This document shows positions 564 through 61,172 of a stretch of 61,172 bases of DNA, piece by piece. The notes under the pieces were generated by a model. The model saw nothing but the letters and a program-made list of their open reading frames with translations. It did no database searches and was not told the origin of the DNA. The position numbers were made by a program, and so were the translations under genes. The DNA comes from Candidatus Nomurabacteria bacterium. GTDB lineage: Bacteria > Patescibacteriota > Minisyncoccia > Phycocordibacterales > UBA9973. The stretch is from the NCBI GenBank assembly GCA_943350445.1, contig CALRAE010000003.1, positions 1 to 61,172 on the forward strand, given 5' to 3'. Numbering within the stretch: the stretch's first letter is position 1; each line of letters starts with the position of its first letter.

Positions 564-1745
564 TTAATTATACCACTTCCCCAGTTTAGTCAAAATTTCG
601 GACAAAGCTTTGACTGTGTAATCGATATCTTGCTTAGTTGTTTCTCTGCCTAGTGAAAATCTTAAAGAGCCATCCTCATCTTTTATATTTTTATTGATTG
701 CCTGTATGACATAAGACACTTTGCCATCGCCGGATTTGCAGGCGCTTTTGGCTGAGGCCATGATGCCTCGCGCCGAGAGCTCAATAACCAAAAGATCGCT
801 CGGAATATTCGGAATAGTAATATTCACATTATTCGGCAATCTATTTTTCAAATCGCCATTTAAATCTATTCTATAATTCGTTAGAATTGTAGAATTGGTT
901 AATTTAGAGACAAAATAGTCACGAAGCTTAGTCAGGCGTTTTGTTTCTTTTTCTTTAATTTTTTGCGCAGATTTTAACGCGTGAGTAAATTTCAAAATCT
1001 CAAACAAATTTTCCGTCCCCGGACGCAATCCCATTTCTTGGTCTCCCCCGCCGAATACTTTTGCGAGCGGTACGGAACTTTTTTTGTAAAGCACGCCGAC
1101 TCTGCCCGCGCCTTCAATTTTTGAACCGGAAAGCGTTAGCATGTCCACTCCTAGTCTAGCCACATTCAAATCCAGATAATTCGCGGCCTGAACTGCGTCG
1201 GTGTGAAATACGGGGAACCTCTCCCAAGAGGTGAGGTGTGTTTTTTTATAGCGCCTAATTATTTTTGCGATTTCTTTTATCGGCTGGATCGTGCCGATTT
1301 CGTTGTTGGCATAATGCACTGAAACTAATATCGTATTTTTGTTTATTTCTTTCTCTATTTTTTTAGGGTTCACAATTCCGCTTTCCTCAACCGGAACAAT
1401 GGAAATTTTCGCGAGCTTCCTTTGCTCAAGCATTTTGAAAGTTTCCAAAACAGACGGATGCTCTATGTTTGTAGTTATGATATGAGGCAAATTAAACCCC
1501 TCCCCACCCCCTCCCCTTAATAAGGGGAGGGCTCCCTGAATTGCCAAATTGTTACTCTCAGTACCTCCGCTTGTAAAAATTATCTCCTGTGGCTGAGCAT
1601 ACAGCAAATTAGCAACCCCGCTACGAGCATTTTCCAGTTTAGAGCGAGCTTCTACTCCCAAAGTATGTATAGAACTAGGATTGGCGTTCACGCTTGCGGC
1701 ATAATCTAAGTATAAATTATGGGACTTTTTGGTTGATTTAACCAT
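564..1745 (-). CDS. cysteine desulfurase / class-V aminotransferase (NifS/IscS-like), copy 1
   Basis: 393 aa. It has a PLP-lysine region (LSGSKIEGAGRVGVLY) and an active-site Cys region (SAKSACKSGDG). Paralog of 6527..7690. Confidence 0.85.
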   Translation of the reverse strand: MVKSTKKSHNLYLDYAASVNANPSSIHTLGVEARSKLENARSGVANLLYAQPQEIIFTSGGTESNNLAIQGALPLLRGGGGEGFNLPHIITTNIEHPSVLETFKMLEQRKLAKISIVPVEESGIVNPKKIEKEINKNTILVSVHYANNEIGTIQPIKEIAKIIRRYKKTHLTSWERFPVFHTDAVQAANYLDLNVARLGVDMLTLSGSKIEGAGRVGVLYKKSSVPLAKVFGGGDQEMGLRPGTENLFEILKFTHALKSAQKIKEKETKRLTKLRDYFVSKLTNSTILTNYRIDLNGDLKNRLPNNVNITIPNIPSDLLVIELSARGIMASAKSACKSGDGKVSYVIQAINKNIKDEDGSLRFSLGRETTKQDIDYTVKALSEILTKLGKWYN

Positions 1746-1769
1746 AAAAATAGTATATATTATCTATCT

Positions 1770-2225
1770 ATGAATACAAAGCTTCAGATTGCTTTTTTTG
1801 TTGTAACCGGAATCGCCCTAGCGATGATTGCTATTTGGGCTATAGTCACGGAAAGGCGCCTGAAAAGATTTTTCCTAGGCAAAAAAGCGAAAGATTTAGA
1901 AGATACTATTGTTAGTTTAGAAAATCACATTATTCAGCTGAAAAAATCAAAAGAGAATATTGAAAAAGAAATGGCCGTGATAAACGCAAAGCTGAAGAAA
2001 AGCGTCCGCGGAGTAGAGACGATACGCTTCAATCCTTTCCCCGACCAAGGCAGCAACCAAAGCTTCGCCATCGGCATGCTGAATGAAGAAGGCGACGGCG
2101 TGGTATTTTCGAGTTTATATTCCCGCGACCGAATGAGCGTATTTGCCAAGCCGGTGAAAAATCATAAATCAGAATACGAACTTTCCGCCGAAGAAAAAGA
2201 TGCTTTAAATAGAGCAAAAGTATAA
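1770..2225 (+). CDS. DUF4446-like single-pass membrane protein, copy 1
   Basis: 151 aa with an N-terminal TM helix, a coiled-coil segment and the block RFNPFPDQGSNQSFA...VVFSSLYSR. The family name comes from memory of that motif. Confidence 0.6.
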   Translation: MNTKLQIAFFVVTGIALAMIAIWAIVTERRLKRFFLGKKAKDLEDTIVSLENHIIQLKKSKENIEKEMAVINAKLKKSVRGVETIRFNPFPDQGSNQSFAIGMLNEEGDGVVFSSLYSRDRMSVFAKPVKNHKSEYELSAEEKDALNRAKV

Positions 2226-3739
2226 TGCAAGAAAATAAAAATAATAAAATAACTTCTCGTCCGCCAGTAGTCGTCGTCATGGGACACATCGACCATGGCA
2301 AATCTACGCTTCTCGACTACATTCGAAAGACAAATGTGACGGATACGGAAGCAGGAGGCATAACTCAAAATATTTCCGCATATGAAGTAGTGCATAAAGA
2401 CGAGCACGGCAAAGACCAAAAAATTACTTTCCTCGACACTCCGGGCCACGAAGCCTTTTCTAAAATGCGGGAGCGCGGAGCGGTAATTGCCGATATTGCT
2501 ATCCTGGTGGTTTCAGCCGAGGACGGTGTGAAACCCCAAACAATTGAGGCTTGGAAAACGATAGTCGAAGCCGGGCTGCCTTCTATCGTCGCCATAAACA
2601 AGATAGACAAGCCGGGCGCGAATGTCGAAAAAACCAAACAAGAGCTCGCGGAAAATGAAATTTATCTGGAAAACTACGGAGGCAAAATACCATGCGCGGA
2701 AATTTCCGCCAAGACAGGAGCCGGAGTAGATGGCCTCTTATCGCTCATTTTGATTCTATCGGAAATGGAAAATTTCACTACCAGCATTGAAGAAGACGCA
2801 ACCGGCTTCGTCATAGAAGCAAACTTAGATTCTAAGCGCGGAATACAAGCGGCTCTAATTGTTAAAAATGGAACTATCGGCAAAGGAATGTTTGTGGTGG
2901 TGGAAAATACCATTTGCTCCACACGCATGATCCAAAATTTCAAAGGAGAAATGATCGAGAGCGCTTCCCCTTCCGCGCCGATACGACTTTGCGGTTTTGA
3001 TAAAATGCCCAGAGTCGGCGCTCCGTTCAAATCTTTTAAAAAGAAAAAAGAGGCTGAGGAATACATAAAAAAATTACCCCCTCGCTCCGACCTAGGTCGG
3101 AGCACTCCCCCTTCTCAAGGGGGGGAGGGTAGCAAAAAGATTATACCTATCATGCTCAAAGCCGACGTTTCCGGCAGTCTTGAAGCTATCGAAAAAGAAA
3201 TTGCTAAAATAAAAAACGAAGGAGCGGAATTTAAAATTATAGCGAAAAGCGTGGGTCCTATTTCCGAATCTGATATAAAAAATATCTCTAACAGCGAAAA
3301 CGCCATAATTATCGGATTCAACGTCAAAGCCGACAAAAGCGCTAGCGAAGTCGCAGAGAAGCGAGGCATAACCATCTCTTTCTTCGATATCATTTACAAA
3401 ATGACCGAGTGGCTCACGGTAGAGATGGAAGCGAGAAGGCCGAGGATAGAGACGGTAGAGACGACGGGAAAGGCGAAAATCATCCGGGCTTTCAGCCGCA
3501 CCAAAGAACGCCAGATCGTCGGCGGAAAAGTAGTCGAGGGACGCATGCTCCTAAATGGCACAGTTAAAATTATGCGCCGGGAATTTGAAATCGGGCGCGG
3601 GAAAATCGTAAACTTAGAGCAAGGCAAGGTCAAGACAAGCGAAGTTGCCGAAGGCCTAGAGTTCGGCATGATGGTCGAATCGAAAATAGAAATAGCGCCG
3701 GGCGACATTATTGAACTATTTTCCATAGCGCAAAAATAG
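2225..3739 (+). CDS. infB: translation initiation factor IF-2, short form, copy 1
   Basis: GTPase motifs GHIDHGKST, DTPGHEAF and NKID, with the C-terminal IF-2 domains. Only 504 aa, so the long N-terminal region is absent. Confidence 0.9.
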   Translation: MQENKNNKITSRPPVVVVMGHIDHGKSTLLDYIRKTNVTDTEAGGITQNISAYEVVHKDEHGKDQKITFLDTPGHEAFSKMRERGAVIADIAILVVSAEDGVKPQTIEAWKTIVEAGLPSIVAINKIDKPGANVEKTKQELAENEIYLENYGGKIPCAEISAKTGAGVDGLLSLILILSEMENFTTSIEEDATGFVIEANLDSKRGIQAALIVKNGTIGKGMFVVVENTICSTRMIQNFKGEMIESASPSAPIRLCGFDKMPRVGAPFKSFKKKKEAEEYIKKLPPRSDLGRSTPPSQGGEGSKKIIPIMLKADVSGSLEAIEKEIAKIKNEGAEFKIIAKSVGPISESDIKNISNSENAIIIGFNVKADKSASEVAEKRGITISFFDIIYKMTEWLTVEMEARRPRIETVETTGKAKIIRAFSRTKERQIVGGKVVEGRMLLNGTVKIMRREFEIGRGKIVNLEQGKVKTSEVAEGLEFGMMVESKIEIAPGDIIELFSIAQK

Positions 3740-3740
3740 C

Positions 3741-4073
3741 ATGAGCCAAGAGAATCAGCGAAAAGACAAAGTGGCAAATTATCTCAAAGAGCTAACCGCC
3801 GAATTTTTGGGGCGGGAAAATAATAGAACCTCGCTCATCACCGTGACGGGCGCCACCTGCTCCCCCGACCTGAAGCGCGCCACCATCTTCATCACCGTGC
3901 TGCCGACTGAAAAAGAATCTCTCGCCCTCGAATTCGCCAAGCGCAAAAGAGGCGAACTGCGCGAATTTTTCAAAAAGAAACTAGAAATAAAAACTATCCC
4001 CTTTATAGATATAGCCATAGACCTAGGAGAAAAACACCGCCAAAAAATTGACGAACTGCTACGAAATGGATAG
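3741..4073 (+). CDS. rbfA: ribosome-binding factor A, copy 1
   Basis: 110 aa lying directly after infB, the classic infB-rbfA order. RbfA-like core LITVT...SPDLK.A.I.I. Confidence 0.8.
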   Translation: MSQENQRKDKVANYLKELTAEFLGRENNRTSLITVTGATCSPDLKRATIFITVLPTEKESLALEFAKRKRGELREFFKKKLEIKTIPFIDIAIDLGEKHRQKIDELLRNG

Positions 4074-4092
4074 ACTTTAGGAAGTTTGTAAC

Positions 4093-4164
4093 GGCCTGGT
4101 AGCCAAGTAGTAAGGCATTCCTCTGCAAAAGGAATATACGTGGGTGCGATTCCCACCCAGGCCT
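4093..4164 (+). tRNA. tRNA-Cys (GCA)
   Basis: Hand-folded cloverleaf: acceptor GGCCTGG/CCAGGCC, anticodon arm TTCCT-CTGCAAA-AGGAA, T arm GTGGG-TGCGATT-CCCAC. 72 nt, no encoded CCA. Confidence 0.9.
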
Positions 4165-4167
4165 CAT

Positions 4168-4491
4168 TTATTTTTCTCGAAGCAATTCGTCAATTCGCTG
4201 TCTGTGTTTTTCTCCGAGGTCGAGCTCGATGTCGATGAAGGGAATATTCTTTGTGGTCATCTTTTTCTTAAAGAATTCTCGAATTTCTGGTCTTTTGCGC
4301 TTGGCAAATTCTAGTGCAGTTTTTTCTTTGTCTGTCGGCAATACAGTGATGTATATGGTCGCCTTTTTTAAATCAGGCGAGCAGTCGGCAGAAGTCACGG
4401 TGATGAGTGATGTCCTATTATTTTCTCTCATCAAAAATTCTGCTGCGAGTTCTTTTATATAATTTGCTACTTTGTCATATCGTTCAGACAT
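4168..4491 (-). CDS. rbfA: ribosome-binding factor A, copy 2
   Basis: 107 aa, clearly homologous to 3741..4073 (DKVANY.KEL.AEFL.RENNRTSLITVT...). Confidence 0.8.
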   Translation of the reverse strand: MSERYDKVANYIKELAAEFLMRENNRTSLITVTSADCSPDLKKATIYITVLPTDKEKTALEFAKRKRPEIREFFKKKMTTKNIPFIDIELDLGEKHRQRIDELLREK

Positions 4492-4492
4492 T

Positions 4493-6043
4493 TTATTTTT
4501 GGGCTATTGAGAATAATTCAATGACGTCTCCGGATGCGACTTCGATTTTGGATTCGATCATCATGCCGAACTCCAGACCCTCCTCAACCACGCTGGTTTT
4601 CGCTTTGGCTTGTTCTAGGTTGACGATCTTCCCACGGCCGATCTCGAACTCTCGGCGCATTATTTTAACTGTACCGTTTAAGAGCATACGTCCTTCGGTC
4701 ACTTTACCACCTATGATCTGGCGTTCCTTTGTTCGACTAAAAGCTCGAATTATTTTTGCTTTACCTGTGGTCTCTACTGTCTCCACCCTAGGGCGCCTTT
4801 GCTCCATTTGTTCTTCTAGGAATTCAGTCATTTTATAAATAATATCAAAGAAAGAAATTGTGATCCCACGTTTTTCTGCCATTTCGATTGCACTCTTGTC
4901 TGCCTTCACATTGAACCCGATAATTATGGCAGCTTCACTGTTTGAAATATTTTTTATATCAGATTCAGAAATTGGACCTACGCCCTTACTGATGATTCTA
5001 AATTCTGCGTTATCGTTTGCTTTTCCATCAACCCCTTTACATTTTATTTTGGCGATTTCTTTTTCTATTGCTTCAATAGATCCAGAGACATCCGCTTTTA
5101 ATAATATTGGGATTATTTTCTTATCAGCTTTTTTTTCAGAAGTTTTTATATCGGATTTATTTTTTTCACCCTTTTGATTCTGCTCAATTTTCCAACTTTC
5201 CGCGTATTCCTGAGCACCCTTTTTGTTTTTGAAAGTCTTAAACATTGCTCCCACTTTTGGCAATTTATCAAAACCACATAGACGTATGGGTGTTGAAGGG
5301 GAGGCACTATCTACCGTTACTCCTTTAAAGTTTTGTATCATGCGTGTAGAGCAGATGCTGTCTTCGACAATTACAGTCATGCCTTTTGTGATTGTTCCAT
5401 TTTTTATGATAAGAGTGGCTTGTATTCCGCGTTTAGAATCAAGTTCTGCTTCGATGACAAAACCCGATGCATCTTCACCCGTATTTTCGGTGAAATTTTC
5501 CATTTCAGCTAAAATCAAAATTAATGATAACAGACTATCTACCCCAGTTCCTATTTTTGCAGAAATTTCTACGAAAGGGGTTTTGCCTCCATAATTTTCT
5601 AAATATATTTCATTCTCTGCAAGGGTTTGTTTTGTCTTTTCAATATTCGCGCCGGGCTTATCTATCTTGTTTATAGCAACAATTACTGGTAGCTTGGCTT
5701 CCACAATTGTTTTCCATGCCTCAACTGTCTGTGGCTTTACGCCATCTTCAGCAGAGACCACAAGAATAGCGATATCTGCAACGATTGCGCCACGTTCTCG
5801 CATTTTTGAGAAAGCTTCGTGCCCTGGGGTATCAAGGAAAGTTATTTTCTGATCTTCCCCTTTCTCATTTTTGTGAAGTACTTCATAAGCAGATATGCTT
5901 TGGGTGATACCACCAGCCTCACCATCAACTACGTTTGTTTTGCGGATATAGTCTAAAAGCGTAGACTTGCCATGGTCAATATGACCCATGACTACTACGA
6001 CTGGTGGACGAGGAGTGATTTTGTTTTCTTTGTTTTTTTGCAT
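4493..6043 (-). CDS. infB: translation initiation factor IF-2, short form, copy 2
   Basis: 516 aa with the same GTPase motifs as copy 1. It differs from copy 1 mainly by indels in the linker after domain II. Confidence 0.9.
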   Translation of the reverse strand: MQKNKENKITPRPPVVVVMGHIDHGKSTLLDYIRKTNVVDGEAGGITQSISAYEVLHKNEKGEDQKITFLDTPGHEAFSKMRERGAIVADIAILVVSAEDGVKPQTVEAWKTIVEAKLPVIVAINKIDKPGANIEKTKQTLAENEIYLENYGGKTPFVEISAKIGTGVDSLLSLILILAEMENFTENTGEDASGFVIEAELDSKRGIQATLIIKNGTITKGMTVIVEDSICSTRMIQNFKGVTVDSASPSTPIRLCGFDKLPKVGAMFKTFKNKKGAQEYAESWKIEQNQKGEKNKSDIKTSEKKADKKIIPILLKADVSGSIEAIEKEIAKIKCKGVDGKANDNAEFRIISKGVGPISESDIKNISNSEAAIIIGFNVKADKSAIEMAEKRGITISFFDIIYKMTEFLEEQMEQRRPRVETVETTGKAKIIRAFSRTKERQIIGGKVTEGRMLLNGTVKIMRREFEIGRGKIVNLEQAKAKTSVVEEGLEFGMMIESKIEVASGDVIELFSIAQK

Positions 6044-6502
6044 TTATTTTACTTCTGCTTTCTTTAATGCTTCTTTTTCTTCCGCACTCAATTCGTATTC
6101 TGATTTATTATTTTTAATGGGTTTTGCAAAGATACTCATGCGTTCACGAGAATATAGACTTGAGAATACCACTCCGTCACCATCTTCATTTAATATCCCA
6201 ACTGCAAAACTTTGGTTACTACCCTGATCAGGGAATGGGTTGAAGCGGATGGTCTCTAACCCACGGATACTTTTTTTCAACTTTGCATTTATAGTTGTGA
6301 TGTCTTTTTCGATATTATTCTTTGCTTTTTTGAGTTCAGTGATATTGTTTTCTAAAATAGTGATGGTGTCTTCTAGATCCTTCGCTTTTTTACCTAAAAA
6401 GAATCTTTTCAATCGTCTCTCTGTCACAATCATCCAAATAGCGCCCATGATTATGGCAATGCCTCCTAAAACAAAAAAAGCCAGTTCGAGCTTTGTATTC
6501 AT
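6044..6502 (-). CDS. DUF4446-like single-pass membrane protein, copy 2
   Basis: 152 aa, homologous along its full length to 1770..2225. Confidence 0.6.
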   Translation of the reverse strand: MNTKLELAFFVLGGIAIIMGAIWMIVTERRLKRFFLGKKAKDLEDTITILENNITELKKAKNNIEKDITTINAKLKKSIRGLETIRFNPFPDQGSNQSFAVGILNEDGDGVVFSSLYSRERMSIFAKPIKNNKSEYELSAEEKEALKKAEVK

Positions 6503-6526
6503 ACCGCTATAATATATACTATTTTT

Positions 6527-7690
6527 GTGGCTAAATCAAATAAAAGCTCAATAAATAAAGCACGGAAAATATACATGGATCATGCCTCCAGTGCTCTTTC
6601 TGCCTCTGCTAACCCTGGGTCTATTCATGAGTTGGGTGTAAAAGAGAAAAATACATTAGAAAGCGCTAGGGGTATAGTGGCAGATATTTTAAATGCTCAC
6701 AGTAAGGAAATTATTTTCACCTCTGGGGCAACAGAAAGCAACAATTTGGCTATTTTGGGTTTGATTAATGCGGTGAATCGTTTATTTTTACCGCACATTG
6801 TGACTACCAACATTGAACACTCATCAGTTTTAGAAGTTTGTAAACATTTAGAAAAAACAAAACAAGTGGAAGTGACTTATGTGTCGGTGGAGGGTAGTGG
6901 TATTGTCGATCCAGAAAAAATTAAAAAAGCTCTCAAGCCAAACACTGTCTTGGTTTCTGTAATGTATGCAAATAATGAAATAGGAACGGTGCAACCAATT
7001 CGGGAAATTGCAAAAGAAATTCGGCATCATAATAAAAATCTTGAAAGTAAGGTTTTTTTTCACACTGACGCAGTTCAAGCAGTAAACTATCTGCCGGTTA
7101 ATGTTGCCCAGCTGGGAGTGGATATGATGTCTATCAATAGCGCTAAAATATATGGTCCAAAAGGAGTAGGGGTTTTGTATGTAAAGAAAGGCACACTCAT
7201 TAGCCCTATTATGTTTGGCGGTGATCAAGAGTTTAGTCTAAGACCAGGCACAGAGAATGTGGCTTTAGCTATTGGTCTCGCAAAAGCTCTAGAGACTACT
7301 GAAAAAATGAAAGAAATTGAGGTGAAGCGATTAACAAAATTTCGGGATTATTTTTTTAAGAAATTATCTAAAATAAAAAATATTAAATTTACAATTAATG
7401 GTGATCTGGAAAAAAGGTTAGCAAATAATATAAACATAACTATTCCAAATATTCCGAGCGATCTTTTAGTCATTGAACTTTCAGCACGTGGGGTGATGGC
7501 ATCTGCGAAGAGTGCTTGCAAGGCAGGGGATGGTAAAGCTTCACATGTTATAGAAGCTATACACCCCAACGTAAAAGAAACTGATGGGTCTTTGAGGTTT
7601 TCTGTAGGAAGAGAAACCACAAAAGCTGATATTGACTATACTATTAAAGCTTTATCTCATATTTTATCCAAGCTAGAAAAGTGGTATTGA
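6527..7690 (+). CDS. cysteine desulfurase / class-V aminotransferase, copy 2 (GTG start)
   Basis: 387 aa with a PLP-Lys region (NSAKIYGPKGVGVLY) and SAKSACKAGDG. Paralog of 564..1745. Confidence 0.85.
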   Translation: MAKSNKSSINKARKIYMDHASSALSASANPGSIHELGVKEKNTLESARGIVADILNAHSKEIIFTSGATESNNLAILGLINAVNRLFLPHIVTTNIEHSSVLEVCKHLEKTKQVEVTYVSVEGSGIVDPEKIKKALKPNTVLVSVMYANNEIGTVQPIREIAKEIRHHNKNLESKVFFHTDAVQAVNYLPVNVAQLGVDMMSINSAKIYGPKGVGVLYVKKGTLISPIMFGGDQEFSLRPGTENVALAIGLAKALETTEKMKEIEVKRLTKFRDYFFKKLSKIKNIKFTINGDLEKRLANNINITIPNIPSDLLVIELSARGVMASAKSACKAGDGKASHVIEAIHPNVKETDGSLRFSVGRETTKADIDYTIKALSHILSKLEKWY

Positions 7691-58657: not shown

Positions 58658-58680
58658 TTTGTGCGGGATGGGGTAATCGA
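58658..58680. repeat. 23-bp direct repeat of the tRNA-Gly 3' end (second copy at 58775..58797)
   Basis: tttgtgcgggatggggtaatcga occurs twice. The second copy spans the last 19 nt of tRNA-Gly plus 4 nt beyond it. Confidence 0.9.
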
Positions 58681-58778
58681 GCTACCACGTAGCCAGGTGC
58701 TTTTCCATCTGGCGCAAAGGAAAAGCCTTTTCGATTCCCCACACAAGCAAAGCAGTTTGCTTGCTATCCCTTACTTTG

Positions 58779-58849
58779 TGCGGGATGGGGTAATCGAAAC
58801 CCCGTCTAATCCTTGGGAAGGACTCATTCTACCACTAAACTAATCCCGC
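58779..58849 (-). tRNA. tRNA-Gly (CCC)
   Basis: Reverse complement GCGGGATTAGTTTAGTGGTAGAATGAGTCCTTCCCAAGGATTAGACGGGGTTTCGATTACCCCATCCCGCA. Anticodon loop TTCCCAA, T arm GGGGT-TTCGATT-ACCCC. Confidence 0.9.
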
Positions 58850-59197: not shown

Positions 59198-59272
59198 GTC
59201 CTCGTAGTTAAATGGATATAACGACTCCGTCCTAAGGAGTAATTGTAGGTTCGATTCCCGCCGAGGACACCA
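59198..59272 (+). tRNA. tRNA-Arg (CCU), CCA encoded
   Basis: GTCCTCG...ACTCC-GTCCTAA-GGAGT...GTAGG-TTCGATT-CCCGC-CGAGGAC-A-CCA. There is one A:C mismatch in the T stem. Confidence 0.8.
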
Positions 59273-60818
59273 AAACAGAACTCAACGGCTTTTTCAAAGC
59301 CAGAAGGTGGGACGCGCGAAGCGCGTCCCACTGATTTCCCCCCATTTTTCCAAACGAATTCAGAATTTTTGGCGTGCTGGCGCGCACCTGTTTTTCGCCA
59401 AGGAGGAGGTTCGAGCCAAAGATTTCTTTGGCACAGACCTTTTTGGCAAAAAGGTCTGAATCAGAAGCAATTTTGTCTATATTCTGTGCGACTTCTAGCC
59501 AGTTTTGGAAAGGTTCGAGCCAATCATTCTGCTTGTGTGAAAGATTGTAGATTTCTTCCTCGAGCGACTTCTTTTGTAAAAGCAATTTTCCTTTTTCAGC
59601 ACGATAATCTTCCTTATCAATATCTTGGTCTAAATATCCATTAAGAAGTCGCTCCAGTCTAATTGAAATTGAAGAAATCTTCTCTTGTTTCTCTTTCACA
59701 CAAGCAGTCAAAGACTGGGCGGATTTTCCGTGGTCTTGCAAAGCAAGACGATTGAGTTCCACCGCCCAGTCTTTTGGCAAAGAAACTTTTTTGATTAAGG
59801 ATGATAACTGGCTATCTAGTATTTCTTGGCGAATACAAGGTTCTTTACATTTCACATTTTTATTTTTCTTCGTGCAGTGATAATACACATACTCGTGAGT
59901 ATTACCATTCTTTTGTTTCTTAACCTTGTATTCGCCAGTTATCATCATTCCGCATGAGGCGCAGGAAATGAGGCCACAGAAAGGTTGTGGGTCGTTTAGG
60001 GGCTTTCTATCTGGCTTACCGCGAAGTTTCAACATTTCCTGCGCCTGATCAAAAAGTTTCTTTGAAATGATTGGCTCGTACTTTCCTTCGTGGAGTTCAC
60101 CACCATATCGGAATAGTCCAGTGTAGAAAGGATTTGAGAGAATTGAAGTCGCACGGGATTTGTGGATTTTCTTTCCGGTTTTTGAAAATAGATTGTGCTT
60201 CGCCAAAAAGTTTGAGACATCTTCCAGTCTATTCCCACCTTTTACATAAAACTCAAACGCTTGCTTAATAATTTTTGCTTTCTTTCTATCAACGACAACA
60301 GTTTTTGTTCGCGAGTCGTTGATGTAGCCGACAGGAGCAAGCGTTGGATAATCTCCATTTCTCACTTTTTGGCGAAGTCCTCTTTTGGTGTTTTCGGAAA
60401 GAGAATCCACATAATATTTGCTTTGCCCGAAAGCCATATTCAACATAAATTTCCCTTGCGAAGTGCTATCGCACCAGAAAGTGGGAAATTTGAGGCTCGC
60501 AAGTTTCCCTGTGTCGAGGAGGTAAATTATCTTCCCACCATCAATACTATTTCTTGCGAGACGATCTGGATGCCAAGAGAGAATAGAATCTGCATCGCCC
60601 TTTTCGATACATTTTATCATTTCGTTAAAAATCGGTCTGCCAGGAATTTTCGCAGATTGCTTTTCGACAAATTCAAGGGCGATATTCAGATTTTCTCTCT
60701 TGGCATAGTCTCGCAATTCTTGGAGCTGTGCCTCAATCGAAAGAACCTGCTTGTCCTCGACATCAGTGGACTTGCGAGCATACAAAAAGAATTTTTTATT
60801 TTCCATATTATTGTTCAT
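59232..60818 (-). CDS. large serine recombinase
   Basis: N-terminal resolvase domain (FFLYARKSTDVEDKQ...SIEAQ, ...HPDRLAR), recombinase domain, Cys-rich zinc ribbon (CASCG...YYHC...C..PC) and a coiled coil. Start taken at ATG 60818. The last ~60 codons lie in the left IR and antisense to tRNA-Arg. Confidence 0.85.
   Translation of the reverse strand: MNNNMENKKFFLYARKSTDVEDKQVLSIEAQLQELRDYAKRENLNIALEFVEKQSAKIPGRPIFNEMIKCIEKGDADSILSWHPDRLARNSIDGGKIIYLLDTGKLASLKFPTFWCDSTSQGKFMLNMAFGQSKYYVDSLSENTKRGLRQKVRNGDYPTLAPVGYINDSRTKTVVVDRKKAKIIKQAFEFYVKGGNRLEDVSNFLAKHNLFSKTGKKIHKSRATSILSNPFYTGLFRYGGELHEGKYEPIISKKLFDQAQEMLKLRGKPDRKPLNDPQPFCGLISCASCGMMITGEYKVKKQKNGNTHEYVYYHCTKKNKNVKCKEPCIRQEILDSQLSSLIKKVSLPKDWAVELNRLALQDHGKSAQSLTACVKEKQEKISSISIRLERLLNGYLDQDIDKEDYRAEKGKLLLQKKSLEEEIYNLSHKQNDWLEPFQNWLEVAQNIDKIASDSDLFAKKVCAKEIFGSNLLLGEKQVRASTPKILNSFGKMGGNQWDALRASHLLALKKPLSSVLVSSAGIEPTITP
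59267..59414. repeat. 148-bp inverted repeat, left copy (starts inside the tRNA-Arg 3' end)
   Basis: It matches the reverse complement of 60880..61027 except for a 3-nt patch (cacctgttttt vs cactgattttt). It contains the hairpin gggacgcgc-gaa-gcgcgtccc. Confidence 0.9.
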
Positions 60819-60879
60819 AGTAATAAAAATTCTTTTTGTATTTCGGGCAAAGCAAATGTAGTCAAAATTGCTTCTGATT

Positions 60880-61027
60880 TCGAACCTCCTCCTTGGCGAA
60901 AAATCAGTGCGCGCCAGCACGCCAAAAATTCTGAATTCGTTTGGAAAAATGGGGGGAAATCAGTGGGACGCGCTTCGCGCGTCCCACCTTCTGGCTTTGA
61001 AAAAGCCGTTGAGTTCTGTTTTGGTGT
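60880..61027. repeat. 148-bp inverted repeat, right copy
   Basis: See 59267..59414. Confidence 0.9.
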
Positions 61028-61172
61028 GTTTATTGTACCAAGCTCGAACCTATTTCCAAAATCGGTAATGTGCCACGCGCGGAGCGCGTGGTGACTTGAA
61101 ACTAAATCGTACGCTCGTATCGTTCCGCCACTGCCTCGCTTCACTCGGCAACCCCAAAAAGAAAAAATGTTC

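What the first reader, a model, noticed from the sequence alone, without database searches (positions are those of the whole stretch)
59198..61027. Large serine recombinase alone between 148-bp near-perfect inverted repeats, docked on the 3' end of tRNA-Arg
IRs at 59267-59414 and 60880-61027 are identical except for a 3-nt patch. The only gene between them is a 529-aa large serine recombinase. The outermost 6 nt of the left IR are the ACACCA that completes tRNA-Arg(CCU), the only tRNA in the window with an encoded CCA. The recombinase ORF runs out through the left IR, so its last about 60 codons are IR- and tRNA-encoded. The right IR carries the same coding information facing outward: ORF 60868-61068 gives the same ...ASTPKILNSFGKMGGNQWDALRASHLLALKKPLSSVLV and then a different 13-residue end. 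Inversion of the 1465-bp core by recombination within the IRs would therefore regenerate a full-length recombinase in either orientation. Each IR contains a perfect 9-bp GC hairpin (gggacgcgc-gaa-gcgcgtccc) and an AAGGAGGAGG run.

The known classes do not fit well:
- IS607-type elements have small recombinases and no IRs.
- Phage integrases have short att sites.
- Hin/Gin invertases are small, with about 26-bp sites.

The unit may be a minimal LSR-based mobile element with very long TIRs, or a self-contained invertible switch next to a tRNA.
Basis: partly seen in the sequence, partly recalled or inferred. Interest (0 to 1): 0.8.

Follow-up and report, generated by a model that had tools for sequence, protein, structure and literature searches.

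The report
tRNA-docking serine-integrase island, duplicated attachment arm
The recombinase between two 148-bp inverted repeats is the integration module of a small genomic island inserted at the 3' end of tRNA-Arg, one member of a very large and apparently undescribed family in ultra-small (CPR) bacteria whose serine integrase can dock on almost any tRNA gene.

Summary
In detail: 148-nt arms, 145/148 identical, bracket one large serine recombinase (LSR), and the left arm overlaps tRNA-Arg(CCU).

It is neither a lone IS-like element nor, on present evidence, a simple switch. Most of 80 related loci from CPR/Patescibacteria MAGs show the same layout. One arm starts at C72-A73-CCA of a tRNA or tmRNA (25 different targets). 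The other arm abuts a conserved sequence "B". B carries a T-arm-like GGTTCGA 4 nt further from the junction than in the tRNA, which is the attP-versus-attB geometry of serine integrases.

In relatives a second, inverted B copy is followed by CAC and, in most cases, a displaced tRNA terminator (attR-like), with variable cargo in between. Empty sites show the insertion point (…GAGGACAC|).

The reading is therefore attL (tRNA|arm) – LSR – internal inverted attP-like site (arm|B) – cargo – attR. The arm supplies the tRNA with CCA and a covariation-supported terminator hairpin, and encodes the last 49 LSR codons.

Both orientations of the LSR core exist in nature. Many database examples are assembly-ambiguous, and active inversion is unproven.

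New variant of a known kind; interest about 0.7.

The parts
59198..59272 (+). tRNA-Arg(CCU). Its T-arm and acceptor 3' strand form the B-type (attB-like) half-site. The CCA is supplied by the inserted arm.
   Evidence: ARAGORN; Rfam tRNA 56 bits on the identical L081 copy; empty sites L086/L090 end ...GAGGACAC|AGTTTT with no CCA.
59268..59270 (.). CAC common core (tRNA C72-A73-C74), the inferred crossover region of attL.
   Evidence: Arm identity starts at CAC(CA) at 65 tRNA junctions. The core is CTC in the three tRNA-Thr-targeting relatives. attR-like junctions keep CAC. Empty and occupied sites diverge right after CAC.
59267..59414 (+). Left arm 'A', the P' arm joined to the tRNA (attL). 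It encodes the last 49 codons of the recombinase on the minus strand.
59307..59352 (+). 11-bp GC hairpin plus T-rich tract: an inward-facing, terminator-like element that replaces the displaced tRNA terminator.
   Evidence: Covariation on 44 distinct arm variants: 93.2% paired against 72.1% shuffled, 6/11 pairs changed on both sides, score 0.462 against 0.113 (0/500 shuffles), slid controls at most 0.133. The T-tract is read from the sequence.
59372..59395 (+). Second small GC hairpin (GCGTGCTGGCGCGC) followed by ACCTGTTTTT.
   Evidence: Terminator-like hit (mapped from L081 7434-7447). In relatives the stem varies compensatorily (GCACCGCC-TTCG-GGCGGTGC and others), judged by eye.
59232..60818 (-). 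Large serine recombinase, 528 aa. The catalytic motif YARKSTD is invariant.
   Evidence: Pfam; invariant columns; distant PDB matches to SPbeta SprA/YokA 1.9e-08 and A118 integrase 5e-07.
60819..60879 (-). Recombinase 5' leader, a conserved AATCAGAAGCAATTTTGAC...AAAAAGAATTTTT box. It is promoter-like in relatives (TGCTATAAT).
   Evidence: by eye; not picked up by the promoter scan in this strain.
60880..61027 (-). Right arm, the inverted copy of A. It carries the same hairpins and the same coding information facing outward.
61003..61059 (.). Internal attP-like junction rc(A)|B', centred on GTG 61024-61026, with P-type half-sites on both sides.
   Evidence: 37 B|arm junctions share ...AAATAGGTtCgAgcttgGTAnAATAaAnA|CACCA. 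GGTTCGA lies 24 nt from CAC here against 20 nt in tRNAs. [quoted passage not shown]
61028..61172 (+). Start of conserved segment B' (continues beyond the window; at least 330 nt in L081). It contains a GC hairpin at 61070-61095.
   Evidence: L081 extends the sequence 5.6 kb.
61032..61059 (-). Promoter-like site in the B end (TTGGAA-16 nt-TACAAT with TG), firing across the junction into the right arm toward the recombinase.
   Evidence: L081 5760-5787. The -35 and -10 hexamers are kept in most B ends (by eye). Function not tested.
60868..61068 (+). 66-codon outward ORF (arm-encoded tail plus LLYQARTYFQNR). It is most simply a by-product of the duplication. The same ending is the recombinase's C-terminus when the core faces B'.

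Best explanation
The unit is the recombination module of a small genomic island that a large serine integrase inserted at the 3' end of tRNA-Arg(CCU).

Site assignments:
- tRNA|left arm is attL.
- The right arm is not a transposon end. Joined to the conserved B sequence, it forms a complete attP-like site that the island keeps inside itself in inverted orientation.
- In relatives a second, inverted B copy joined to CAC and, in most cases, the displaced tRNA trailer/terminator is attR, with variable cargo between the two B copies.
- In this strain the cargo side carries RmuC, a DNA methyltransferase and two unknown genes, and runs to a decayed arm at tRNA-Ser.

Target recognition (inferred): the integrase recognises features common to all tRNA genes, namely the T-arm GGTTCGA 20 nt before C72-A73-C74. 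B mimics this motif 4 nt further out, as in attP versus attB half-sites. This would explain how near-identical enzymes sit at many different tRNAs and at tmRNA.

What the arm does: it gives the tRNA a CCA and a new terminator hairpin, and it carries the recombinase's last 49 codons. Because the arm is duplicated in inverted orientation, the gene stays complete whichever arm it faces.

Inferred steps:
- The free form carries two inverted attP copies (B.A-LSR-rc(A).B').
- Either copy can recombine with a tDNA by ordinary attP x attB chemistry, which sets the orientation of the core.
- The leftover attP can later react with a second tRNA.
- The arms are kept alike by gene conversion or occasional inversion through host homologous recombination.
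For: - Family size: more than 7900 homologues, the top 120 at 71% identity or more (63% over a partial match for one fusion protein), named Patescibacteria/CPR where named.
- Recurrence: about 60 of 80 related loci have an arm pair bracketing the LSR.
- Targets: 25 tRNA/tmRNA targets; flank classes are (B,t) 29, (contig end,t) 26, (t,t) 2, (B,B) 1, (t,B) 1.
- Outer boundary: fixed at CAC(CA) of the tRNA. The other side is always B.
- Inner boundary: fixed after GGAGGT[TG]CGA.
- Far end: B.CAC(CA) is followed by a terminator hairpin in L021, L060, L063 and L072. The common core is only CAC in L015, L025 and L039.
- Empty sites: L086/L090 read grx-tRNA-Arg...GAGGACAC|AGTTTT, against ...GAGGACAC|CAAAAC in the window.
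- Core covariation: the core is CTC where the target is tRNA-Thr.
- Half-site geometry: the 4-nt offset of GGTTCGA matches the DBD2 shift reported for LSRs, which is 4 bp in SPbeta integrase, the closest solved relative.
- Recent mobility: one 90%-identity cluster holds at least 10 different tRNA-derived tails. Two copies occur in single MAGs (L024/L042, L025/L056).
- Same island, different flanks: L094 versus L095.
- Units flanked by two tRNAs with diverged arms: L014, L059.
- Units with B on both sides and diverged arms: L046, L083.
- Arm hairpin covariation.
Against: - No free circular form was recovered, and there are no relatives in IMG/VR.
- In this strain no inverted second B copy or B|trailer junction lies within 10 kb, so attR is inferred from relatives only.
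- Why an island should keep an inverted attP is unexplained. Canonical LSR rules give that site no partner except another tRNA.
- Half-site assignments rest on sequence pattern, not binding data.
- B ends also look like promoters, so part of their conservation may have nothing to do with recombination.
- The B classification used a hand-made pattern.
Confidence: 0.68

Rival explanations
1. Self-inverting switch. The recombinase itself recombines the two arm ends (tRNA|A with B|A, formally attL x attP) and flips its own gene. This swaps its promoter context (B promoter versus tRNA read-through) and its C-terminal tail (tRNA-antisense junk versus the conserved LLYQxRTYFQN). The swap would act as a built-in control of expression or directionality.
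For: - The two sites are in inverted orientation with identical arms.
- The ORF is regenerated in both orientations.
- About a quarter of the top 120 homologues carry the LLYQ tail.
- A reliably assembled flipped locus exists (L085, six arm mismatches), as does L051.
- A fossil tRNA-Ser|arm|leader lies in this very genome.
- Arms are usually 98-100% identical.
- Mosaic and chained arrangements (L012, L081) would be easy to make if sites sharing one half could recombine.
Against: - Known LSRs do not recombine attL with attP, and attP x attP recombination is most likely prevented by coiled-coil interactions (PMC11722253).
- Three assemblies of this strain show one orientation.
- Among loci with distinguishable arms, the tRNA-proximal 3' orientation dominates (about 13 to 1).
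- Many LLYQ tails can be assembly mis-threading through identical arms.
- No near-isogenic opposite pair was found.
- The arm peptide co-varies with the hairpin, which argues against a specific tail function.
Confidence: 0.15
2. Minimal IS-like transposon. The 1761-bp arm-LSR-arm unit is an autonomous element with 148-bp terminal inverted repeats that transposes on its own to tRNA 3' ends. B and the cargo would be unrelated neighbours.
For: - Many contigs of 1.7-2.2 kb consist of the unit alone.
- The unit sits at many different tRNAs.
- Copies are multiple per genome.
Against: - Short unit-sized contigs are what assemblers produce at any repeat longer than k; contig ends fall at 55, 77, 99 and 141 nt inside arms.
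- No locus shows the unit with plain target DNA on its second side. That side is B, a B variant, a second tRNA or a contig end.
- B co-occurs and co-evolves with the recombinase across hosts.
- A serine recombinase acting on inverted ends inverts rather than excises (established mechanism, from my own knowledge).
Confidence: 0.05
3. 2-micron-like episome. The natural state is a small circle in which two long inverted repeats (B+A, 300-550 bp) separate the recombinase from the cargo. The repeats would serve flip-based replication or copy control, and chromosomal copies would be secondary.
For: - Excision of the integrated form would give exactly this topology (inference).
- B-on-both-sides contigs exist: L046 and L083 with diverged arms.
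- Both repeat pairs are kept near-identical.
Against: - No circular contig was found.
- Cargo is variable and no conserved replication gene was evident.
- There are no hits in viral or plasmid-like collections for this family.
- Nearly all long contigs are chromosomal, with housekeeping flanks.
Confidence: 0.05
4. Assembly fold-back artefact at a contig end.
For: - The window ends 145 nt past the right arm.
- Genuine fold-back contigs exist in this family (L093, 1718-nt perfect palindrome).
Against: - The arms differ at 3 positions and are followed by different unique sequences.
- The leader|arm and arm|B junctions are unique sequences found in dozens of independent assemblies.
- L081 spans the unit inside an 81.6-kb contig.
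Confidence: 0.02

Closest known systems
Phage and element serine integrases (SPbeta SprA, A118/LI, phiC31, Bxb1): attP x attB integration
   Same: - Domain set (resolvase catalytic domain, recombinase domain, zinc ribbon with long helical insertion).
- Tiny common core instead of long direct repeats.
- P-type versus B-type half-sites with the outer motif shifted 4 nt, as in SPbeta.
   Different: - The target is the 3' end of essentially any tRNA/tmRNA gene rather than one specific site, usually in a protein-coding gene.
- The element retains an intact inverted attP-like site.
- The integrase ORF runs across the crossover point.
- No RDF candidate was identified.
- Sequence similarity to characterised members is only E about 1e-8.
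tDNA genomic islands of the Islander type / tycheposons
   Same: - Small cargo islands (defence-type and other accessory genes) next to a tRNA gene, with the integrase gene adjacent to the tRNA.
- The tRNA is kept functional by sequence supplied by the island.
   Different: - Those islands use tyrosine integrases in nearly all cases (PMC4383910; 910 of 937 tycheposons, bioRxiv 10.1101/2020.12.28.424599).
- They leave a direct repeat of the tRNA 3' part. Here the shared core is 3 nt, the enzyme is an LSR, and the repeats are inverted.
Tn4451/Tn5397 (TnpX/TndX) LSR transposons
   Same: An LSR is the sole mobility enzyme, targets are multiple, and the crossover core is short (own knowledge).
   Different: Those elements have short imperfect ends with a GA core, no tRNA specificity and no internal inverted attP (own knowledge; not tested here).
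Invertible segments with long inverted repeats and crossover sites at their outer ends (phage P1 C segment with 0.6-kb repeats and cix sites; Hin/Gin/Cin family)
   Same: Geometry: long inverted repeats carrying coding sequence, with candidate crossover sites at the outer edges, so that a gene end is exchanged on inversion (own knowledge).
   Different: - Those use small serine invertases encoded outside the segment, with Fis and an enhancer.
- Here the enzyme is an LSR encoded inside the segment, and inversion is unproven.
Myxophage Mx8 intP/attP overlap
   Same: The attachment site lies within the 3' end of the integrase gene, so integration changes the enzyme's C-terminus (own knowledge).
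   Different: Mx8 Int is a tyrosine recombinase, and it has no duplicated inverted arm that restores the alternative ending.
Yeast 2-micron plasmid
   Same: The predicted excised circle would have two long inverted repeats, each holding a recombinase site, separating two unique segments (inference).
   Different: FLP is a tyrosine recombinase acting on identical sites for copy amplification. No circle or replication function was seen here.

Membership tests
Large serine recombinase / serine integrase | N-terminal resolvase-type catalytic domain with the serine nucleophile motif | tested here: met
   PF00239 E 5.9e-22. YARKSTD is invariant in 49 sequences (R15 K16 S17 T18 D19).
Large serine recombinase / serine integrase | Recombinase domain (DBD1) and zinc-ribbon domain (DBD2) C-terminal to the catalytic domain | tested here: met
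   PF07508 4.4e-15 and PF13408 6.2e-08. Cysteines C281, C286, C289, C315 and C324 are invariant.
Large serine recombinase / serine integrase | Coiled-coil insertion in DBD2 | tested here: inconclusive
   The model shows long helices at 349-396 and 402-431 with pLDDT 80-91 locally, but the overall model is poor (mean pLDDT 54).
Large serine recombinase / serine integrase | Short att sites with a 2-bp crossover and no long direct repeats at the element ends | tested here: met
   The common core of attL, the attP-like, the attR-like and the empty site is CAC.
Large serine recombinase / serine integrase | Outer (DBD2) motif 4-5 bp closer to the centre in attB than in attP half-sites | tested here: met
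   GGTTCGA lies 20 nt from CAC at 65 tRNA junctions and 24 nt at 37 B junctions. Rule taken from PMC11722253. Protein binding was not tested.
Large serine recombinase / serine integrase | Unidirectional attP x attB reaction, reversed by an RDF | not testable with these tools
   No RDF candidate was recognised. This needs biochemistry.
IS607-type serine-recombinase insertion sequences | Small serine recombinase with an N-terminal DNA-binding domain, no terminal inverted repeats, usually a TnpB partner | tested here: not met
   The protein is a 528-aa LSR with C-terminal DNA-binding domains, the repeats are 148 nt, and there is no second gene.
Hin/Gin/Cin-type DNA invertase switches | Small (~190 aa) serine invertase | tested here: not met
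   528-aa LSR.
Hin/Gin/Cin-type DNA invertase switches | Two sites in inverted orientation bounding a segment found in both orientations within one population | tested here: inconclusive
   Inverted candidate sites are present. Both orientations occur across lineages (L085, L051 versus most). Within this strain only one orientation was seen. No read data were available.
tDNA genomic islands (Islander definition) | Integration into a tRNA/tmRNA gene with the gene restored by island sequence | tested here: met
   Empty versus occupied site. The arm supplies CCA and a terminator.
tDNA genomic islands (Islander definition) | Tyrosine integrase, with a displaced direct-repeat fragment of the tRNA at the far end | tested here: not met
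   The enzyme is an LSR. The far end keeps only CAC(CA) plus the trailer.
2-micron-like inverted-repeat circles | Circular replicon with two inverted repeats, each holding a recombinase site | tested here: inconclusive
   The topology is predicted from the integrated form. B-both-sides contigs L046 and L083 exist. No circular contig and no replication gene were found.

The most novel reading that the evidence does not exclude
The enzyme may not obey the canonical attP x attB-only rule. It would recombine any two sites that share one half (tRNA|A with B|A; B|A with B|trailer). Arm-bounded recombinase cassettes and B-bounded cargo cassettes could then flip, chain and swap at tRNA genes without an RDF.

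This would be a serine-recombinase cassette-shuffling system, shufflon- or integron-like, anchored on tDNA and spread across the Candidate Phyla Radiation. Self-inversion of the recombinase gene would switch its promoter and C-terminal tail.
Probability: 0.12. Interest if true: 0.85.

Novelty: new variant of a known kind. Interest (0 to 1): 0.7.

Why it matters
Three reasons.

1. **Abundance without description.** This appears to be a dominant mobile-island type in CPR/Patescibacteria: thousands of close homologues, up to 96% identical across different candidate phyla. These organisms' means of gene exchange are poorly known, and five literature searches found no description.

2. **A generic landing pad.** A serine integrase whose natural target is the generic 3' end of tRNA genes (T-arm motif plus C72-A73-C74; 25 targets including tmRNA, for enzymes at least 64% identical) is unusual. 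tDNA integration is classically the territory of tyrosine integrases. Such an enzyme could be attractive for landing-pad-free genome engineering, because tRNA genes with this motif exist in every organism.

3. **An unexplained design.** The retained inverted attP-like site, and the integrase ORF reading across the crossover point, have no counterpart in standard serine-integrase biology. Units flanked by two tRNAs suggest that the spare site drives chromosomal rearrangements between tRNA genes.

Tried and rejected
- **Viral contigs.** The IMG/VR scan found no relatives.
- **Rfam.** Only the tRNA was found; B and the arm match no known RNA family.
- **Structure prediction.** Mean pLDDT 54, so the low confidence of the arm-encoded tail cannot be interpreted. 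No fold search was run.
- **Codon-position analysis of the arm.** Second positions are the most conserved (0.68 against 1.1-1.2 bits in the outer part; 0.36 against 0.66-0.72 in the inner part). This is a weak coding signal confounded by DNA-level constraints.
- **Near-isogenic opposite orientations.** L085 versus other loci at the same tRNA cluster are only about 75% identical.
- **The displaced downstream gene of the empty site.** Absent from this genome's nearby sequence; L086 is a different species.
- **A second B copy or attR in this strain.** Not found within 10 kb.
- **P0122 loci.** They first looked like proof of a B-both-sides form and of two recombinases. I rejected them as evidence because the repeats are 100% identical to the contig ends (fold-back or mis-threading).
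- **The 3-nt patch as a functional asymmetry or crossover mark.** Rejected: arm differences are scattered and locus-specific.
- **A second GAAC motif in the arm as the dyad partner of GGTTCGA.** Rejected: the spacing does not fit a common centre.
- **Single-stranded DNA idea.** I considered that the repeats might rebuild a double-stranded attP from DNA taken up by transformation. No evidence bears on it.
Full report
**1. The observation**

The repeat is as described. The arms are 59267-59414 and 60880-61027, 148 nt each, 145/148 identical, and 1465 nt apart. It is the only long near-perfect inverted repeat in the window.

tRNA-Arg(CCT) occupies 59198-59272, and its last six bases are the first six of the left arm. 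The other four tRNA genes of the window do not encode CCA.

The only long ORF with domain support between the arms is a minus-strand ORF, 59232-60818, with the full domain set of a large serine recombinase (LSR): Resolvase, Recombinase and Zn_ribbon_recom. It reads out through the left arm (49 codons) into the antisense of the tRNA. The right arm carries the same coding information facing outward and ends ...LVCLLYQARTYFQNR.

Two other assemblies contain the unit at 100% identity. One of them sits inside an 81.6-kb contig (L081). The structure is therefore not an end-of-contig artefact.

**2. It is one member of a very large family**

A protein search returned more than 7900 homologues at E up to 1e-10. 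The best 120 were at 71% identity or more (63% over a partial match for one fusion protein, P0073) and, where named, came from Patescibacteria/CPR.

I fetched 80 related loci from GTDB species genomes. About 60 have an inverted-repeat pair of 137-185 nt bracketing the recombinase at the same spacing. Many contigs stop inside an arm after 55, 77, 99 or 141 nt, which is the signature of a repeat longer than the assembler's k. This also explains the many unit-sized contigs of 1.7-2.2 kb.

**3. Junction anatomy**

*Outer boundary.* In every locus with both arms complete, arm identity begins at CAC(CA). These bases are C72, the discriminator A73 and CCA of a tRNA. The tRNA differs from locus to locus: 25 different tRNA species plus tmRNA. 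One locus uses a non-tRNA pseudo-site that still has GGTTCC about 20 nt before CAC (L039).

*The other arm.* It never abuts arbitrary DNA. It abuts a conserved sequence that I call B, with consensus ...AAATAGGTtCgAgcttgGTAnAATAaAnA|CACCA across 37 junctions. The last 145 nt of this window are the start of B. L081 shows that B continues for at least 330 nt, in conserved blocks.

*Inner boundary.* It is equally fixed: after GGAGGT[TG]CGA, inside the conserved EIFG|SNLLLGEK motif on the 3' side and next to a conserved leader on the 5' side.

*Second repeat.* In eight or more relatives a second inverted-repeat pair made of B (150-405 nt, usually 99-100% identical) starts exactly where the arm ends and encloses 2-3 kb of variable cargo.

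*Far end.* The distal B copy is followed by CAC or CACCA. In L021, L060, L063 and L072 an intrinsic-terminator hairpin comes next, which is what the displaced native trailer of the tRNA should look like. In L015, L025 and L039 the shared core is only CAC.

*Empty sites.* A metagenome scan anchored on this tRNA-Arg found them. L086 and L090 have the same glutaredoxin-tRNA-Arg context and read ...GAGGACAC|AGTTTTGATTTTTTT, then a gene. The window reads ...GAGGACAC|CAAAACAGAAC. The insertion point is therefore directly after CAC. The native gene has no CCA; the arm provides it.

*Core covariation.* In the three relatives that sit at tRNA-Thr, both the tRNA junction and the B junction read CTC instead of CAC. 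The core thus co-varies with the discriminator base, as expected if the crossover dinucleotide includes position 73.

**4. Reading the sites with serine-integrase rules**

In tRNA junctions the T-arm motif GGTTCGA starts 20 nt before CAC. In B junctions the same motif starts 24 nt before CAC.

In LSRs the motif bound by the zinc-ribbon domain lies 5 bp closer to the centre in attB than in attP half-sites. In SPbeta integrase the shift is 4 bp (PMC11722253). SPbeta integrase is the closest solved relative of this protein, although only at E 2e-8.

I therefore read the sites as follows:
- tRNA = B-type half-site.
- B = P-type half-site.
- The arm = the P' half.
- tRNA|arm = attL.
- B|arm = an attP-like site.
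- B|trailer = attR.

The window thus contains attL, the recombinase, and an intact attP-like site in inverted orientation. These assignments are inferences from sequence pattern, not binding data.

**5. What the arm carries**

*Terminator.* The 11-bp GC hairpin is kept by compensatory change. On 44 distinct arm variants:
- 93.2% of cells pair, against 72.1% in shuffles.
- 6 of 11 pairs change on both sides.
- The covariation score is 0.462, against 0.113 in shuffles (0 of 500 reach it) and at most 0.133 when partners are slid.

On the strand entering from the tRNA the hairpin is followed by a T-rich tract. I read it as the terminator that replaces the one pushed to the far end. A second small hairpin also varies compensatorily, judged by eye.

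*Coding.* The recombinase frame stays open through the arm in nearly all homologues. The peptide changes with the hairpin (WDALRASH, WACLRHAH, WAALCAAH), and the codon-position signal is weak. The tail is probably translated, but its sequence is dictated largely by the DNA or RNA structure.

*Promoter in B.* The B end matches an extended -10 promoter (TTGGAA-16-TGgTACAAT) that fires across the junction into the arm. Part of B's conservation may be promoter function.

**6. The island in this genome**

L081 and L092 extend past the window's end. In order, they carry:
- B.
- RmuC.
- An N6/N4 DNA methyltransferase.
- A 305-aa and a 98-aa protein without family matches.
- A diverged copy of the arm plus the recombinase leader, with no recombinase, abutting the 3' end of tRNA-Ser(GGA).

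Housekeeping genes (TruB, TerC, a UvrD/PD-(D/E)XK helicase-nuclease) follow. The island therefore fills the ~6 kb between the convergent tRNA-Ser and tRNA-Arg genes. No inverted second B copy and no B|trailer junction occur in this stretch, so attR is inferred from relatives only.

**7. Orientation, and a caveat**

Among the top 120 homologues about 70% end in tRNA-antisense tails (G[IFL]EP...) and about 25% in LLYQxRTYFQN[KR]. One 90%-identity cluster contains at least 10 different tRNA-derived tails and several LLYQ tails.

Such counts cannot be taken at face value. When the arms are identical and longer than k, the orientation of the core and the choice of exit from an arm are undetermined in short-read graphs. 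L093 is a perfect 1718-nt fold-back, and L094/L095 end in 100%-identical repeats.

Using only loci whose arms differ:
- The window's orientation (recombinase 3' arm at the tRNA) holds in about 13 loci.
- The flipped orientation is reliable in L085, which has six arm mismatches. L051 also shows it on a 149-kb contig, with identical arms.
- The fossil arm plus leader at tRNA-Ser in this genome also has the flipped orientation.
- B lies on both sides in L046 (arms 90.6% identical) and L083 (76%).
- tRNAs lie on both sides in L014 and L059.

Both orientations and all flank combinations are therefore real, but the window's orientation dominates. I found no near-isogenic pair in opposite orientations. 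Three assemblies of this strain agree with one another.

One hint of population polymorphism: the MEGAHIT k141 contig L081 ends at the position equivalent to window 59131. That is exactly 140 nt from 59271, the first base after the core that differs from the empty site. This is what a branch between two alleles at the junction would produce. It is suggestive only.

**8. Mechanism**

*Shown or directly read from sequence:*
- Insertion after CAC of a tRNA.
- A fixed attL/attP-like/attR-like anatomy.
- Many tRNA targets for near-identical enzymes.
- The same island next to different flanks (L094 versus L095).
- Two copies in single MAGs.

*Inferred:*
- The integrase uses ordinary attP x attB chemistry with tRNA genes as generic attB sites.
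- The free form carries two inverted attP copies. Either may be used, which sets the core's orientation.
- The remaining attP can later react with another tRNA, giving units flanked by two tRNAs.
- Gene conversion, or inversion by host homologous recombination, keeps both repeat pairs nearly identical.

All four observed flank classes can be reached with canonical chemistry from a B-both-sides precursor, which is why I prefer this account (confidence about 0.68).

*Main rival (about 0.15):* the recombinase itself inverts its gene through an attL x attP-type reaction, switching promoter and tail.
- For: mosaic arms (L012), a recombinase-less arm plus leader heading cargo (L081), and a tRNA fragment caught between arm and B (L074) show that these junctions recombine in more ways than simple integration.
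- Against: known LSR rules, and the orientation bias among reliably assembled loci.

*Minimal-IS reading (about 0.05):* no unit is ever seen alone.

*2-micron-like episome (about 0.05):* no circle or replication gene was found.

*Artefact reading:* excluded for the repeat itself.

**9. Comparison with known systems**

It works like a serine integrase and meets the family's sequence-level criteria. It differs in four ways:
- It targets tDNA generically.
- It keeps an inverted attP-like site.
- Its ORF crosses the crossover point.
- It lacks a recognisable RDF.

It resembles tDNA islands and tycheposons in lifestyle. Those use tyrosine integrases in nearly all cases and leave direct repeats of the tRNA end (PMC4383910).

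From my own knowledge, not tested here:
- The geometry recalls the P1 C segment, with long inverted repeats and sites at their outer ends.
- The changed integrase ending recalls Mx8 intP.
- The predicted circle recalls the 2-micron plasmid.

Five full-text searches found no description of this family or architecture.

**10. Verdict**

This is a new architectural variant of a known kind (an LSR integrative element). It is abundant across CPR bacteria and has a potentially useful generic tRNA-gene target. The purpose of the duplicated arm and the retained attP-like site, and whether the core actively inverts, remain open. Both can be tested directly with read data and simple in vitro recombination assays.

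Noticed in passing
window 58658-58797 (minus strand; tRNA-Gly(CCC) at 58778-58849): A ~97-nt insert with two hairpins lies between the 3' end of tRNA-Gly and a 20-23-nt direct repeat of that 3' end. It is homologous to ~105-nt inserts next to tRNA-Arg(CCT) in L087 and L089, which are likewise followed by a 19-nt repeat of the tRNA end. This looks like a second, miniature tDNA-associated element family.
   Followed up: partly
window 564-7690: Mirror-image paralogous gene triplets lie on either side of tRNA-Cys (4093-4165): 393 aa-, 151 aa+, 504 aa+ | tRNA | 516 aa-, 152 aa-, 387 aa+. Nucleotide identity is 71-75%. This is an old inverted segmental duplication centred on a tRNA gene.
   Followed up: no
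L081 1526-1780 (beyond the window's end, same strain): A diverged, recombinase-less copy of the arm plus the recombinase leader abuts tRNA-Ser(GGA) and reads into the cargo genes (98 aa, 305 aa). It is either a fossil of the flipped arrangement or a non-autonomous derivative.
   Followed up: partly
L081 contig end (= window 59131); L082 ends (= window 59130 and 61164); window end 61172: Contigs carrying the unit stop 136-145 nt past the far arm. L081 stops exactly k-1 = 140 nt from the first base after the CAC core, as expected if a second allele (an empty or differently occupied site) shares the flank in that sample.
   Followed up: partly
L093 1-1718 vs 5369-7086; L094/L095 5669-5939 vs 7405-7675: Perfect fold-back contigs run through the B and A repeats. 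Public assemblies and gene calls for this family therefore contain mis-threaded orientations and chimeric recombinase C-termini.
   Followed up: yes
L074 5528-5601: A ~72-nt 3' fragment of a class II tRNA is caught between the arm and B', flanked by CAC cores. It looks like a footprint of recombination at a secondary site followed by excision.
   Followed up: no
L012 3663-3870 vs 5381-5527: The two arms of one unit belong to different arm subtypes (159-nt type versus 147-nt type), so elements recombine with one another.
   Followed up: no
L085 7607-8007: An inverted fragment of a second recombinase gene (85.6% identical to residues ~230-363 of the first) lies 70 nt into B'. This is evidence of nested or decayed copies.
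   Followed up: no
L006 about 1740-1790; L039 5561-5600: In L006 the target tRNA has lost its acceptor 3' strand at the junction, so the tRNA is damaged. L039 is inserted at a non-tRNA pseudo-site with GGTTCC ~21 nt before CAC.
   Followed up: no
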